Source of the DNA: Oopsacas minuta
Lineage: Eukaryota; Animalia; Porifera
Length of the DNA: 38,912 nt
Assembly (NCBI GenBank): GCA_024704765.1
Contig: JAKMXF010000350.1
Span: 1-38,912, forward strand
Reading direction: 5' to 3'
The notes beneath the pieces are model-generated. The model made no database searches, was not told where the DNA came from, and worked only from the letters and a program-made list of their open reading frames with translations. The position numbers were made by a program, and so were the translations under genes. This document shows positions 1,649-6,800 of this stretch, piece after piece. Within the stretch, counting starts at the first letter, position 1; each line of letters begins with the position of its first letter.

Positions 1649-3575
1649 TTATAGCATCTGTAGACAGTTGTCTTCCTTCATGTCATCAACTGTAACATAG
1701 CCAGATGGTTCTATGAGTATGCAAGAGGGACAGAATATTTGGCACAGTCCATGTCCTGTCTCACAAACTGTTTCAATGAATTTACATTTCCGGTCAATCA
1801 CTTTGATGGAATTATCCCAGAAATCACATATGTATATTCTCCATTCATTTGTGATAGGATTATAGGACAGGTTGAAGTTGTATGCTCCTACTATCTGATC
1901 CTCTGTGAGTATGGACCTTATGAGTTCTCCTTCTGGAGAGAACATTTGTAGAGGAGAGGGAGATCCTGTGAAGAGACATATAACACAATCATCAACAGCC
2001 TTCATGTCCTGTAGCCATGGATACCTGTTGGGTATCTTGGTATGCAGGATAGGATTGAGTAAGTATTCTTGTTCTATACGGAGAGGATCTACCTGCATAA
2101 GGATGAGACTGGGCTTAAGAGTCCTCACATACAAATGCTTAAGGTTAGAGGAGGTACAACAAGCCTGTGGTATTGATATGGTGTGTTCAAGATTCATGCG
2201 AGATGTCTCTATACTATTTTTCCATGTTAAGCTGAATTGTACTAATAAACTTGTATAGCACACGAATACGGACTGTTTGAAGTAGGTCAATGAGGCAGGA
2301 GTATCAGGTAGATGAGGATCATGATGCGAATTATTGCTGCAAGATCATTAGCTCTGTAGAGTGTGACTCTATCACCGTATCCATCCGCTACTATTACGTT
2401 ATTCTCAAATATAATTATACCAGCTCGTGTATCTAATTGGTTGCCCATTTCTCCACCTCTATCAACGCCAGATGTTACAAGGATGTTTCTCTCTTCTTTG
2501 GGTGGAGCTATCCACAGGGGATAGTTATCAATGGTGATAGCAAAAGAAGGAATGTTTATCCTGTTGTTGTAATAGTGACGGATAACTCTGAGTAATAAAT
2601 CATATATATCCTTCAAATCCTTATCTTCCTTATTCTTCCTGATGAGATATTCTAGTGACCTAGCGTCTCTATACAGGAAAGATAGTTCATTGAATGTAAA
2701 AGTCACATCCTCCTCAACATGTGCATACCAATCCTCTATCACTTTGCACTTCTCTTCTATCCTATCTGCATTCCTGGTTTCCAACTCATCTCTAGCTATC
2801 GCATACTCCATATTAAGTCTGTTTAGCCTCATGTCATACCCCTGACATGTGATACCACCGGGAAGCAGATCTCTCTTGGATGGATTTACTGGTTTCATGT
2901 CTTCCTCTATTTCAAGATCTACATAGAAAATGAATTCTCCCTCAATCAATTGTGTCATTCCTTTCCTCATACAATCTGAACACCAAGGTTCTGGAATAGG
3001 ATAAGTCCTCATCTTTAAGATCTCTGCCTTCGGTCTCAGTCTCAGAGATTCGTATCTCTTTACTATCACACTCTCGATCGGTTCTGGGAGTTCAGGGTCT
3101 AGACTATACTGAATTCTATCAATCTTTTCCTCAGCTGTCCCCTTCCACATGATGAGACCGTTTAGGGAGTATAGGGAAGGTTCTGCTAGAGTCTCCTCTA
3201 TGTAGTAGAGGCTGTCTTTGTATTCAATAAGAAGGTAGTCATCGATGATTAGTAAAGATATTTTCTGGAAATGCTTGTCGTATCGCTCCTGGAATGAATC
3301 TTTGAGAGGGACAGGAGTATCATACTCGAGATTACGGATTCATAATCTTCGTAGAGAGGTGATAACGTGTTAACTATTCTAACACCTATTTTTATCTTAT
3401 ATGTCGCTATAATTGTTTCCATTTCATTGAGGATATTTGGTATCCTAACAATATTCCTGCACTCCTGTATTATTCCGGTATATCGTTCCTTCAAGGATAC
3501 ACGTGTTTTTGTGGACAGTACGGAGGCCTTCTTGCTATTTAGCGTTTCCATTTCCAACTGGAACCCTCTAGACAA
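1649..3575 (-). pseudogene. Coiled-coil + NHL-repeat (TRIM-NHL-like, no RING/B-box seen) gene read through three consecutive frames. Segment 3575-3249 (coiled coil, IIQECRNIVRIPNILNEME) joins 3322-2287 (coiled coil + first NHL blades) and then 2290-1649 (NHL blades). Each junction needs a one-base insertion, so it is either a pseudogene or carries local indel errors.
   Basis: ORFs 3249..3575, 2287..3150 (which extends upstream without a stop to about 3322) and 1649..2290 are collinear on the minus strand. Start-coordinate frames go 2->0->1. The 'M' codons of the last two ORFs are TTG. NHL-like blades: ILVTSGVDRGGEMGNQLDTRAGIIIFENNVIVADGYGDRVTLY, and NEWRIYICDFWDNSIKVIDRKCKFIETVCETGHGLCQIFCPSCILIEPSGYVTVDD. 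The coiled-coil segment is homologous to the N-termini of the genes at 4186-5409 and 5910-6800. First ATG is at 3551. Confidence 0.5.
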
Positions 3576-4185
3576 TTCGTAAATTTATTTAACTTGAATT
3601 TCTTGTAGTCAATGGACCGAATTTCCTTTAATCTATCCTCGTACTTTTTCAACATTTCTGAGCCTTTGAATGTGTTACCTAACTCATGTTTATTGTCAAT
3701 TCAAATATTCTTTGTAGTCAGTTCATATTTTAGTTAATAGAAATGTTGTAGCAGTTCTTTTTATAGAAATATCTCTTCGTTATTATTTGTATTATAATTA
3801 AGTTATACTTTCAATGTAAGTAGAACTTTCTATGTGAAGTAATGTGTTGCAAAAAGGTAGTAAATAAATCGAATAAACAACGAACAAACAAACAGAAATT
3901 AAGCAAATACTCAAAATCCGATAAATCTCAAAAACTCTCTTAAAACTATGATATTCACACATAATCTAAAAATACCAATCCTGTATATAACAAGTAACAC
4001 CTTATTAAGAAAGTGGTTCGTAATCGTCTTGCTTCCGTATGTAACACCTTCCAATCATATATGCCATGTATCTATAAATGATCACTAACAGATATAAATG
4101 TTCTTATACAACTGTTATAGAAAAGAAAGATAAATAGATAATAACATTGTAAATGTCATAAACCAGTACGAATAAATATAGATAA

Positions 4186-5409: not shown

Positions 5410-5909
5410 GAATGAATATGTCTATTGTACTACCTTTGAATAATACGTAAATATAATTTTGAAATCTTAAATAGTTGTATTGAGATATAAATAGTATAAT
5501 ATTAATTATTTAATTGGTATTAGTTAGATAATATATTTATCCAGTACATAGGTAGGTGATAGTCATATTAATGGTAATTAGTTCAGATGAAACGCTTGCA
5601 AATTACCAACAATAATAAGAATTAGGGGTGAAAGGGTATTCGTTTGATTATAATCAAATGGATATTTTTTGGAAACAAGCGAATATTCGGCATATTCGTT
5701 TCAGTTCTATTCAAATATGTAAACATCGATCAGCCATATAGAATGCTATGGTTCAGCATAATTGATAAACAGTAATAGTCTGGTACAACTTATTACGAAT
5801 ATTTTTAACATGACATTTCCTTGACAAAAGACAAACAAACTAAGTAACAATAATTGTGATTTAATATGTATTTTGTTGTATTTAGAATTTAGAATAAATT
5901 CAGAAGTCA

Positions 5910-6800
5910 ATGGCATCCAAAGCTAATATTTTAGACGCTAGAGTAGATGAAATCAAAGTTGAAATTGAAATGATATTTCAGAACATAATTGCATCTTTCC
6001 TAGAAAGAAAGAACACATTATTGCTGCAATTAGAAGAGAGGGTTCGACAATCCACAGATGCTTATACTGTTTTGATGAATGAACATTTAGAGTTAGTAAA
6101 AATGAGAGATCAGTTAGAAGAGAGTTTGAACAAGAATCAGTATAGTGATCTTAGAACTGACATGCTTGGTCCATTACAATCCAGGATTCTTGAACAAGAA
6201 AAGAAATTACATTCTGAATTCAATATGGAGTTTACATATACTGGATTTGAACACTTGATAAATATTATTGAATATTTTGGAGAATTTTCATTTCAGAAAC
6301 CTTCATCTAATATTTGTCTTCCTGAAACTCGCTCAATTCCAATTCCACCACCTGATATACCCGCTAGCTTTCTCTTTGGCACATATACACATCCATATAG
6401 AGGGTCTCGTTCTTCAACCAGTACCACTCCTCATCCAATTCCAGTTACTAATCGTGGTGCAACTGGAGGTTCTTTAATACCCCAACCACCCCCTGATATC
6501 CCCATGAGATTTCTTTTAGGTACATATACACGTCCACACCAAACAAGAGGTTCAATTTCTTTCCGTCCAACAGGGGGAGCTACTCCTCATCGAACACGGT
6601 CATTCAATCGTCATGCAACTAGAGGTTCCTTTATACCCCTTCCACCCCCGGATATACCCCGGAGCTTCCTGTTAGGAACAAATTCTACACGTTCCCGTTC
6701 TACAAGAGGCACAGCTCCACAGACCTATTCAAGATCTACTGCTTCTAACCCTAGACTGAGAGCTTTCTTCTCCTTACTGGGTAGTCACACTAATACATGA
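5910..6800 (+). CDS. 296-aa paralog sharing the N-terminal coiled-coil domain of the NHL genes. Instead of NHL blades it carries three approx. 50-aa tandem repeats: IP(I/Q/L)PPPDIP(A/M/R)(S/R)FL(F/L)GTYT(H/R)P…RG(S/A)…
   Basis: True ATG at 5910. EIEMIFQNIIASFLERKNTLLLQLEERVRQ aligns with EVESLFEKLIICLRNRKDILLNKLKELRGN of gene 4186-5409. The three approx. 150-nt DNA repeats (about 6340-6490, 6490-6650, 6650-6740) have diverged mainly at synonymous sites, i.e. selection at protein level. Confidence 0.65.
   Translation: MASKANILDARVDEIKVEIEMIFQNIIASFLERKNTLLLQLEERVRQSTDAYTVLMNEHLELVKMRDQLEESLNKNQYSDLRTDMLGPLQSRILEQEKKLHSEFNMEFTYTGFEHLINIIEYFGEFSFQKPSSNICLPETRSIPIPPPDIPASFLFGTYTHPYRGSRSSTSTTPHPIPVTNRGATGGSLIPQPPPDIPMRFLLGTYTRPHQTRGSISFRPTGGATPHRTRSFNRHATRGSFIPLPPPDIPRSFLLGTNSTRSRSTRGTAPQTYSRSTASNPRLRAFFSLLGSHTNT
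6340..6740 (+). repeat. Three tandem approx. 150-bp coding repeats inside CDS 5910-6800 (PPPDIP…FLLGTYT unit).
   Basis: ccaccacctgatatacccgctagctttctctttggcacatatacacatcc / ccaaccaccccctgatatccccatgagatttcttttaggtacatatacacgtcc / ccttccacccccggatataccccggagcttcctgttaggaacaaattctacacg. Confidence 0.7.

What the first reader, a model, noticed from the sequence alone, without database searches (positions are those of the whole stretch)
1649..6800. Cluster of three coiled-coil paralogs, one of which swapped the NHL propeller for a novel Pro-rich tandem repeat
Genes at 1649-3575(-), 4186-5409(-) and 5910-6800(+) share a homologous N-terminal coiled coil (E.E..F…I…L..RK..LL..L.E.R). Two carry NHL blades. 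The third carries three approx. 50-aa repeats, IPxPPPDIPxSFLLGTYT…RGS, conserved at protein level while diverged at synonymous sites. This is domain shuffling within a TRIM-NHL-like family lacking RING/B-box, and the repeat unit is not one I recognise.
Basis: seen in the sequence. Interest (0 to 1): 0.6.

Follow-up and report, generated by a model that had tools for sequence, protein, structure and literature searches.

The report
Glass-sponge coiled-coil protein with proline motifs
A small glass-sponge gene pairs a TRIM-type coiled coil with a disordered basic tail that carries three copies of an uncatalogued proline motif; it is real, conserved and uncharacterised, but it is a modest lineage-specific variant and not a local domain swap among three neighbouring paralogs.

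Summary
The window is Oopsacas minuta (glass sponge) DNA. ORF 5910-6800(+) is the annotated hypothetical protein LOD99_9076, intact and single-exon. Its three repeats (6336, 6477, 6633) are real, with dN/dS 0.12-0.20 and near-saturated dS. Orthologs turned up only in a Vazella transcriptome and unnamed assemblies that share its microsynteny. All carry three copies of an invariant 9-mer, IPxPPP[D/N][I/M/Y]P, inside a tail that AlphaFold2 predicts as disordered, followed by a conserved C-terminal helix. So the repeat is a triple short linear motif, not a folded 50-aa domain. No Pfam, PDB or 1.84-billion-protein profile hit matches the tail. The N-terminal coiled coil is homologous to that of the neighbouring coiled-coil/NHL gene 4186-5409(-) (hhalign 97.4%, E 1.5e-11). 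It looks TRIM-type: its best natural PDB hits are TRIM45, Brat and TRIM3. The neighbour's propeller matches TRIM-NHL structures. The third gene (1649-3667, -) is not a coiled-coil paralog. It belongs to another family with a divergent NHL propeller and is frameshifted at least three times here. In Vazella no NHL gene flanks the ortholog, so the cluster is secondary. Most likely function, inferred: a dimeric, multivalent proline-motif adaptor. Interest is modest.

The parts
5910..6800 (+). Complete single-exon CDS of the coiled-coil/proline-motif protein (296 aa; NCBI LOD99_9076, hypothetical protein, Oopsacas minuta)
   Evidence: ORF with a stop 4 codons upstream of the ATG; 100% identical to P0001; orthologs P0002-P0008
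5910..6284 (+). N-terminal TRIM-type coiled-coil module (aa 1-125): long helix 2-74, then helices 79-104 and 110-124, ending in the conserved FGE motif
   Evidence: AF2 pLDDT 80-93; hhalign to the coiled-coil/NHL family 97.4%, E 1.5e-11 and to family A6 97.7%; PDB profile hits TRIM45, Brat and TRIM3 coiled coils
6336..6362 (+). Proline motif 1, IPIPPPDIP (start of repeat 1, 6336-6476)
6477..6503 (+). Proline motif 2, IPQPPPDIP (start of repeat 2, 6477-6632)
6633..6659 (+). Proline motif 3, IPLPPPDIP followed by R (start of repeat 3, 6633-6797); this copy is IPxPPPDIPR in every ortholog
6285..6728 (+). Predicted disordered, basic (pI about 12), P/S/T/R/G-rich tail that carries the three motifs
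   Evidence: AF2 pLDDT below 50 over residues 125-277; composition and pI; dN/dS of tail 0.41 versus coiled coil 0.20 in the closest ortholog pair
6729..6782 (+). Conserved C-terminal element SRSTASNPRLRAFFSLLG (aa 274-291), predicted amphipathic helix 281-291
   Evidence: Invariant S276 S279 R282 L283 R284 F286 F287 S288 L289; helix in the AF2 model
4186..5409 (-). Neighbouring coiled-coil + six-bladed NHL propeller gene (407 aa, annotated 'Cell surface protein'); coiled coil about 5020-5409, propeller about 4192-4968. It is the only true coiled-coil relative of the repeat protein in the stated region
   Evidence: Pfam NHL 8e-18; AF2 pLDDT 82.5; Foldseek top hits are TRIM-NHL propellers, E 1e-19 to 1e-15; large family
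1652..3667 (-). Gene 1 (annotated LOD99_9074): degraded copy of a different glass-sponge family (about 400-aa helical N-terminal region + divergent NHL-like propeller), with at least 3 frameshifts and an in-frame stop. It is not part of the coiled-coil family
5410..5909 (.). 500-bp head-to-head intergenic region between the NHL gene and the repeat gene (possible shared promoter; inference only)
   Evidence: ORF coordinates; this arrangement is absent in Vazella

Best explanation
ORF 5910-6800 encodes a lineage-restricted cytoplasmic scaffold, found so far only in glass sponges or assemblies that look like them. Its N-terminal 125 residues form a TRIM-type coiled coil. By analogy with solved TRIM coiled coils this should form an elongated antiparallel homodimer (inferred). 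In its relatives this module is followed by an NHL beta-propeller. Here it is followed by a roughly 170-residue disordered, strongly basic tail. The tail carries three copies of an invariant 9-residue polyproline-II-type motif, IPxPPP[D/N][I/M/Y]P, and ends in a conserved amphipathic helix (RLRAFFSLL). A dimer would therefore display six proline motifs and two terminal helices. It would act as a multivalent adaptor that recruits or clusters a partner with a proline-recognition domain (EVH1-, SH3- or WW-like). The closest formal resemblance is to class I EVH1 ligands, [FWYL]PxPP, with Ile in the first position.

Shown: the gene is intact, conserved, under purifying selection and transcribed in a relative; the coiled coil is homologous to that of coiled-coil/NHL proteins; the tail is predicted to be disordered; the motifs are invariant. 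Inferred: dimerisation, adaptor function and the identity of the reader domain. The family probably arose from a coiled-coil/NHL-type ancestor by loss or replacement of the propeller before the sampled lineages diverged, not by a local event in this cluster.
For: Intact ORF identical to an annotated O. minuta protein. Seven orthologs at 35-51% identity, one from the Vazella pourtalesii transcriptome EP00800. Conserved microsynteny DUF7587 - gene - DUF7587 - HlyIII. The motif core is invariant in 29/29 instances from 10 sequences. Repeat-core dN/dS is 0.12-0.20; between orthologs dN/dS is 0.20 for the coiled coil and 0.41 for the tail. AF2 gives confident helices 2-124, pLDDT below 50 for most of residues 125-277, and a C-terminal helix 281-291. 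Coiled-coil homology: hhalign 97.4%, E 1.5e-11 to the coiled-coil/NHL family and 97.7%, E 1.4e-12 to a second coiled-coil/NHL-like family, with a negative control at 1% against gene 1's helical region. TRIM-type coiled coil: TRIM45 0.0025, Brat 0.014, TRIM3 0.15, TRIM28 0.3 as best natural PDB hits, and TRIM_CC below threshold in 7/35 relatives. TRIM coiled coils are described as antiparallel dimers (PMC8251876, PMC6701479). Another assembly holds a tandem array of about 10 genes with the same coiled coil plus variable disordered tails, so coiled coil plus disordered tail is a recurring architecture.
Against: No partner, localisation or expression data exist for O. minuta itself. No canonical motif class fits all copies: EVH1 class I requires F/W/Y/L where this motif has Ile, while PPxY and PxxDY occur only in the second motif of three orthologs. 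TRIM-type assignment of the coiled coil rests on marginal E-values, and the top PDB hit is a designed helical protein. The AF2 alignment had only 7 sequences, so low pLDDT in the tail is suggestive of disorder, not proof. The direction of domain change (loss of NHL versus independent fusion of a coiled-coil module) was not resolved by a phylogeny.
Confidence: 0.55

Rival explanations
1. The basic disordered tail is a nucleic-acid (RNA) binding region that functionally replaces the positively charged RNA-binding face of a TRIM-NHL propeller. The proline motifs act as rigid spacers or secondary contacts.
For: Tail pI is 9.8-12 in all orthologs and the O. minuta copy is rich in R, S, T and G, with several RG dipeptides. 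NHL domains of Brat, LIN-41 and TRIM71 bind RNA through a positive surface (PMC8251876), and the neighbour's propeller is most similar to these.
Against: The RG dipeptides and most basic residues are not positionally conserved, whereas the proline 9-mers and the C-terminal helix are invariant. That pattern points to protein-protein motifs. No RNA-binding domain hit was found.
Confidence: 0.15
2. The protein is a propeller-less decoy that hetero-oligomerises through its coiled coil with coiled-coil/NHL paralogs, such as the divergently transcribed neighbour, and modulates them.
For: The coiled coils are homologous. The two genes lie head to head with 500 bp between them in O. minuta.
Against: The coiled coils are only about 19-25% identical. 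The adjacency is absent in Vazella and in two other ortholog loci. A decoy would not need three invariant proline motifs and a conserved C-terminal helix.
Confidence: 0.1
3. The repeats form a folded or self-assembling structural repeat (polyproline-II plus a beta strand from SFLLGTYT) that builds fibres or a matrix, so they are a genuine new domain.
For: In O. minuta the similarity extends about 18-25 residues beyond the prolines (IPxPPPDIPxSFLLGTYT...RGS).
Against: The extended similarity is not conserved in other species; only the 9-mer is. AF2 gives pLDDT 32-46 across the region. Spacer lengths between motifs vary from 19 to 52 residues among orthologs. There is no signal peptide.
Confidence: 0.05
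4. The ORF is a non-functional or mis-annotated reading frame and the repeats are a decaying DNA tandem duplication.
For: There is no direct expression evidence for O. minuta. The neighbouring gene 1 is degraded.
Against: The ORF is intact in at least 7 divergent sequences with synonymous sites near saturation and dN/dS well below 1. A Vazella transcript exists. Synteny is conserved.
Confidence: 0.02

Closest known systems
TRIM-NHL proteins (class VII TRIMs: Brat, LIN-41/TRIM71, TRIM2, TRIM3, TRIM32/Thin, Mei-P26)
   Same: The coiled coil of the repeat protein and its NHL neighbour has TRIM coiled coils, including Brat and TRIM3, as best natural PDB matches. The neighbour's propeller is structurally closest to these proteins (E 1e-19 to 1e-15, TM about 0.8). 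The architecture, a coiled coil followed by a variable C-terminal module, is the same.
   Different: There is no RING, B-box or filamin domain: proteins start at the coiled coil. The repeat protein also lacks the NHL propeller. Without a RING it cannot be an E3 ligase by the TRIM mechanism.
Glass-sponge coiled-coil/NHL family (relatives of 4186-5409; more than 700 database hits, up to about 25 paralogs on one contig)
   Same: The N-terminal coiled coil is homologous up to the FGE/FGK boundary (hhalign E 1.5e-11). Both share the MAT/MAS start, and both occur only in the same set of sponge assemblies.
   Different: The C-terminal module is a disordered proline-motif tail instead of a six-bladed propeller. 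The repeat protein is single-copy and syntenic, not massively expanded.
Multivalent proline-motif recruiters of Ena/VASP (ActA, zyxin, lamellipodin with repeated FPPPP; ELM class LIG_EVH1_1) - comparison from my own knowledge
   Same: It has several spaced copies of a hydrophobic-P-x-P-P core in a disordered region, often followed by an acidic residue. Multivalency would be enhanced by oligomerisation.
   Different: The first position is invariantly Ile, which is not in the [FWYL] consensus, so no copy matches the regex. The motif has a conserved P-[D/N]-[I/M/Y]-P extension. No binding data exist.
Tandem array of coiled-coil + variable-tail genes in another assembly (locus L003, ERZ20067936)
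   Same: These genes share the coiled-coil module (profile hits E 1e-16 to 1e-32; P0178 was found by the family profile at E 4e-4). They are short, S/T/P-rich, probably disordered tails with no propeller. P0178 ends in IFSFLRD, which resembles FFSLLRD.
   Different: The tails are hypervariable and lack the IPxPPPDIP motif. The genes are tandemly expanded, not single-copy.

Membership tests
TRIM / RBCC family | N-terminal RING domain | tested here: not met
   The protein starts at the coiled coil (MASKANILD...). A stop lies 4 codons upstream of the ATG. The N-terminus is conserved in all orthologs. No zinc-finger Pfam hit.
TRIM / RBCC family | One or two B-box zinc-binding domains | tested here: not met
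   No B-box hit in Pfam. No Cys/His-rich segment precedes the coiled coil.
TRIM / RBCC family | TRIM-type coiled coil (long H1 helix with shorter helices folding back; antiparallel dimer) | tested here: inconclusive
   The helix pattern 2-74 / 79-104 / 110-124 fits. The profile hits TRIM45 (0.0025), Brat (0.014) and TRIM3 (0.15) coiled coils. Pfam TRIM_CC appears only below the gathering score, and only in relatives. Dimerisation could not be tested.
TRIM-NHL (class VII) | C-terminal NHL six-bladed beta-propeller | tested here: not met
   Not met for 5910-6800: there is no NHL hit, and the tail is disordered. Met for the neighbour 4186-5409.
Glass-sponge coiled-coil/NHL superfamily (defined here by the shared coiled-coil module) | Homologous N-terminal coiled coil ending in the FG(E/K) boundary motif | tested here: met
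   hhalign 97.4%, E 1.5e-11 and 97.7%, E 1.4e-12. The negative control against gene 1's family gave 1%.
Any catalogued proline-rich repeat or domain family | Significant match of the tail or repeat to a Pfam model, a PDB chain or any non-family protein | tested here: not met
   Pfam: none. PDB profile search: best tail hit E 1.1. In the 1.84-billion-protein profile search, all 9 non-family hits begin in the coiled-coil part of the profile (start positions 3-16) and 8 of them end by position 131; P0177, a coiled-coil/NHL protein, extends to position 177.
Class I EVH1 ligands (LIG_EVH1_1) | [FYWL]PxPP or [FYWL]PP[ALIVTFY]P | tested here: not met
   0 matches in 7 orthologs. All 21 motifs read IPxPP, with Ile in the first position.
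WW class I (PPxY) and Eps8-type SH3 (PxxDY) ligands | PPxY / PxxDY present and conserved | tested here: not met
   Present only in the second motif of P0006-P0008 and their close variants (PPPDY). The other motif copies have I or M at that position.
   hhalign A1 vs A3 probability 1%. A3 vs A2 aligns the propeller only. HMM hits to the coiled-coil region have E of 4.7 and 6.1.

The most novel reading that the evidence does not exclude
IPxPPP[D/N][I/M/Y]P is a previously undescribed class of polyproline-II ligand motif. A dedicated reader domain in glass sponges (an EVH1-, SH3- or WW-type domain with altered specificity) would recognise it. The coiled-coil dimer would then be a hexavalent, lineage-specific organiser, for example of actin regulators in syncytial tissue, derived from a TRIM-NHL-type ancestor by exchanging a propeller for linear motifs.
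Probability: 0.2. Interest if true: 0.45.

Novelty: new variant of a known kind. Interest (0 to 1): 0.3.

Why it matters
If the reading is right, the locus shows a TRIM-type coiled-coil dimerisation module reused in a non-bilaterian lineage. The same module sits in front of NHL propellers (hugely expanded), NHL-like propellers, hypervariable disordered tails and, here, a conserved triple proline-motif tail. It also gives a sharply defined, invariant 9-residue motif to use as bait for finding its reader, in a group of animals with almost no functional protein data. It does not bear on a long-standing open question, and the principle of a folded domain replaced by a disordered region with linear motifs is well known.

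Tried and rejected
Pfam on all ORFs of the three genes and on orthologs gave nothing for the tail.

PDB sequence-profile search with the whole family gave nothing significant.

Foldseek of the AF2 model against PDB was uninformative, because the model is mostly a single long helix plus disorder.

TRF and seed-based repeat searches see no DNA-level repeat.

A look-up of the O. minuta protein in the contig index found no record. Context was therefore taken from ortholog loci.

I tested whether the tail might be an NHL-coding sequence read in another frame. The NHL-family HMM has no hit in any frame of 6300-6800, so this was rejected.

I scanned canonical linear-motif classes (EVH1, Homer, SH3 I/II, CIN85, Eps8, WW, MYND, GYF, 14-3-3, LIR). 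None is conserved across all copies.

Literature searches for the motif string, for O. minuta + NHL and for sponge NHL expansions found nothing relevant, and the O. minuta and Aphrocallistes genome papers do not mention NHL or TRIM.

I relied on profile comparisons instead.

I could not identify the organisms behind the ENA assemblies, except Vazella.
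Full report
Source and gene models. The window is AT-rich (GC about 0.29-0.41 in 1-kb bins), and its ORFs include eukaryote-type genes (P450, palmitoyl-protein thioesterase, GT10 fucosyltransferase). ORF 5910-6800(+) is 100% identical to 'hypothetical protein LOD99_9076 [Oopsacas minuta]', a hexactinellid (glass) sponge. ORF 4186-5409(-) is identical to an O. minuta protein annotated 'Cell surface protein'. The third 'gene' corresponds to LOD99_9074.

The observation. The 296-aa ORF is intact, with a stop four codons upstream of its ATG. It contains three tandem units starting at residues 143, 190 and 242 (nt 6336, 6477, 6633). 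Each opens with IPxPPPDIPxxFLxGT, and pairwise BLOSUM62 local scores are 83-116. A back-translated pattern for the motif hits exactly these three sites, against 0 expected in shuffles. At DNA level the 18-codon cores are only 72-76% identical, with dS 0.8-1.4 and dN/dS 0.12-0.20. Neither TRF nor a seed-based repeat search detects them.

What the repeat is. A word-indexed search of 5.8 billion proteins found only seven homologs, at 35-51% identity. One is a Trinity transcript of the glass sponge Vazella pourtalesii (EukProt EP00800), so the ortholog is transcribed. The rest come from ENA assemblies. A filter-only HMMER profile search of 1.84 billion cluster representatives found nothing further that matches the tail. 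All nine extra hits begin in the coiled-coil part of the profile, and eight end by position 131. The ninth, P0177, is a coiled-coil/NHL protein whose match runs to position 177. Pfam and PDB sequence searches are also negative for the tail.

Across 10 sequences the conserved element is a 9-mer: I-P-x-P-P-P-[D20/N9]-[I19/M5/Y5]-P. I, P2, P4, P5 and P9 are invariant in 29/29 instances, and every complete protein has three copies. Spacers between copies range from 19 to 52 residues and are otherwise poorly conserved. The longer '50-aa' similarity (SFLLGTYT...RGS) is strong only in O. minuta. Position-specific signatures, such as the third copy always reading IPxPPPDIPR, show that the triplication predates the divergence of these species. 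AlphaFold2 was run with a shallow 7-sequence alignment. It gives confident helices for residues 2-74, 79-104 and 110-124, pLDDT below 50 for most of residues 125-277, and a short helix at 281-291. That helix coincides with the invariant C-terminal element SRSTASNxRLRAFFSLL. The tail is P/S/T/R/G-rich with pI 9.8-12, while the coiled coil has pI 4.8. In the closest ortholog pair dN/dS is 0.20 for the coiled coil and 0.41 for the tail. Together these are the hallmarks of a disordered region carrying short linear motifs, not of a folded repeat domain.

The coiled coil and the TRIM-NHL connection. BLASTP between the repeat protein and the NHL neighbour is weak (25% over 63 aa, E 0.003). A profile-profile comparison of the two families is clear: 97.4% probability, E 1.5e-11, over 119 columns. 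It runs from the N-terminus to the shared FGE motif, where the architectures diverge. A second family (A6), the best non-family match of the profile search, is also a coiled coil plus NHL-like blades (99% to the NHL family), and it matches the repeat protein's coiled coil at 97.7%, E 1.4e-12. A combined coiled-coil profile has as its best natural PDB hits the coiled coils of TRIM45 (0.0025), Brat (0.014), TRIM3 (0.15) and TRIM28 (0.3-0.8). The single best hit overall is a designed helical protein, so this evidence is suggestive only. Pfam TRIM_CC appears below threshold in 7 of 35 coiled-coil/NHL relatives.

The neighbour's AF2 model (pLDDT 82.5) has a helix at 10-78, two short helices and a high-confidence propeller. 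Its top Foldseek hits are all TRIM-NHL propellers: Thin/TRIM32, TRIM71/LIN-41, Brat, Mei-P26, TRIM2 and TRIM3, with E 1e-19 to 1e-15. All 35 aligned family members start with the same Met directly at the coiled coil, so RING and B-box are genuinely absent. 'TRIM-NHL-like without RING/B-box' is thus a fair description of the neighbour. The repeat protein shares that coiled coil.

What is wrong in the finding. The third gene is neither an intact ORF nor a coiled-coil paralog. Its homologs form a separate family, found only in O. minuta and unnamed ENA assemblies, of 550-600-aa proteins. Against the NHL family these align only over a divergent propeller (97.4%, E 1.2e-11). They show no similarity to the repeat protein's coiled coil (probability 1%). 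That comparison also serves as a negative control against generic helical bias. In the window, tblastn with the 82%-identical paralog LOD99_2109 splits the gene into four frame segments with an in-frame stop. The junctions are not in long homopolymers. The deposited 405-aa model bridges one shift with an intron and ends in read-through sequence. It is probably a pseudogene, though assembly error is not excluded.

The 'cluster' is secondary. In Vazella (L005, 8.8 kb) the order is DUF7587a - repeat gene - DUF7587b - HlyIII, with no NHL gene. A second ortholog locus (L001) shows repeat gene - DUF7587 - HlyIII. Two further loci have no NHL gene within 10 kb. In O. minuta the same anchors are present: DUF7587a at 1-578, DUF7587b at 17382-18149 and HlyIII at 22104-23078. 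Here they are interrupted by gene 1, the NHL gene, a P450, a GT10 fucosyltransferase and two more NHL-like genes. Both intruding families have near-identical dispersed copies elsewhere in the O. minuta genome, at 95% and 82% identity. The adjacency therefore reflects insertion of members of abundant families, not in-situ duplication followed by a domain swap.

Mechanism (inference). TRIM coiled coils form elongated antiparallel dimers (PMC8251876, PMC6701479). If this one does, each dimer presents six invariant proline motifs and two conserved amphipathic helices on flexible basic tails, which is the design of a multivalent adaptor. No canonical ligand class fits every copy. The nearest is the class I EVH1 core [FWYL]PxPP with Ile substituted. 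PPxY and PxxDY appear only in the second motif of one clade. The reader domain therefore remains unknown. Rival explanations are RNA binding by the basic tail, a decoy for coiled-coil/NHL paralogs, a structural repeat, or a spurious ORF. They fit the conservation pattern less well, as set out in the rivals section.

Comparison and novelty. The protein is not a TRIM, because RING, B-box and NHL were all tested and are absent. It carries a TRIM-like coiled coil and belongs to a sponge superfamily in which that module precedes various C-terminal parts. These include a tandem array of about ten coiled-coil + hypervariable-tail genes in another assembly. The family and its motif are uncatalogued, and I found no paper on them. 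The principle, a dimerisation module plus a disordered tail with linear motifs after loss of a propeller, is familiar. I rate it a new variant of a known kind, with interest about 0.3.

Noticed in passing
window 1652-3667 (-): The annotated gene LOD99_9074 looks like a pseudogene. It falls into four frame segments with an in-frame stop relative to its 82%-identical paralog LOD99_2109. The deposited 405-aa model skips one shift with an intron and terminates in read-through sequence.
   Followed up: yes
window 1-578 (+) and 17382-18149 (+); L005 3223-4029 and 6205-6954: Two DUF7587-family genes flank the repeat gene in both O. minuta and Vazella, so this is conserved microsynteny. The upstream O. 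minuta copy is split into two ORFs (7-228, 261-578) where Vazella has a single 268-aa ORF.
   Followed up: partly
window 15262-16604 (+) and 20087-20941 (+): There are two more NHL-like genes in the window. The first is fragmented into several short ORFs with a weak coiled-coil fragment at 15262-15426 (E 0.0036), so it is a possible pseudogene or a multi-exon gene. The second is a 284-aa propeller-only ORF (family HMM E 2e-24) with no Pfam hit.
   Followed up: partly
L003 (ENA ERZ20067936 ptg000095l), 1997-12639: A tandem, same-strand array of about 10 genes (153-237 aa). Each has the same TRIM-like coiled coil followed by a hypervariable S/T/P-rich tail, with no propeller. The organism was not identified.
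   Followed up: partly
homolog list of window 4186-5409: The coiled-coil/NHL family is massively expanded in the ENA assemblies that hold it: more than 700 database hits, with about 25 paralogs on one 810-kb contig and many on others. This resembles lineage-specific expansions of TRIM or NHL genes in other invertebrates. I found no mention of it in the O. minuta or Aphrocallistes genome papers.
   Followed up: partly
window 4186-5409 (-): The NCBI product name 'Cell surface protein' looks like an automatic transfer from bacterial NHL proteins. The protein has a TRIM-like coiled coil and a TRIM-NHL-type propeller, and its AF2 model shows no membrane-spanning helix.
   Followed up: partly
window 7904-9411 (-), 11559-12773 (+), 22110-23081 (+), 28197-29081 (-): Context genes: a multi-exon cytochrome P450 (Pfam 4e-36 for the last exon), a GT10 fucosyltransferase (5e-29), a HlyIII/PAQR-type membrane protein (2e-26) and a palmitoyl-protein thioesterase (3e-62).
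   Followed up: partly
P0005 (Vazella-type ortholog, 263 aa): One database copy of the ortholog is identical to P0003 up to about residue 195, then diverges completely and loses the third motif and the C-terminal helix. It is probably a frameshifted allele or an assembly error.
   Followed up: no
window 5851-5895: Short AT-rich tandem repeats (periods 11 and 7) lie immediately upstream of the repeat gene's ATG, within the 500-bp head-to-head intergenic region.
   Followed up: no
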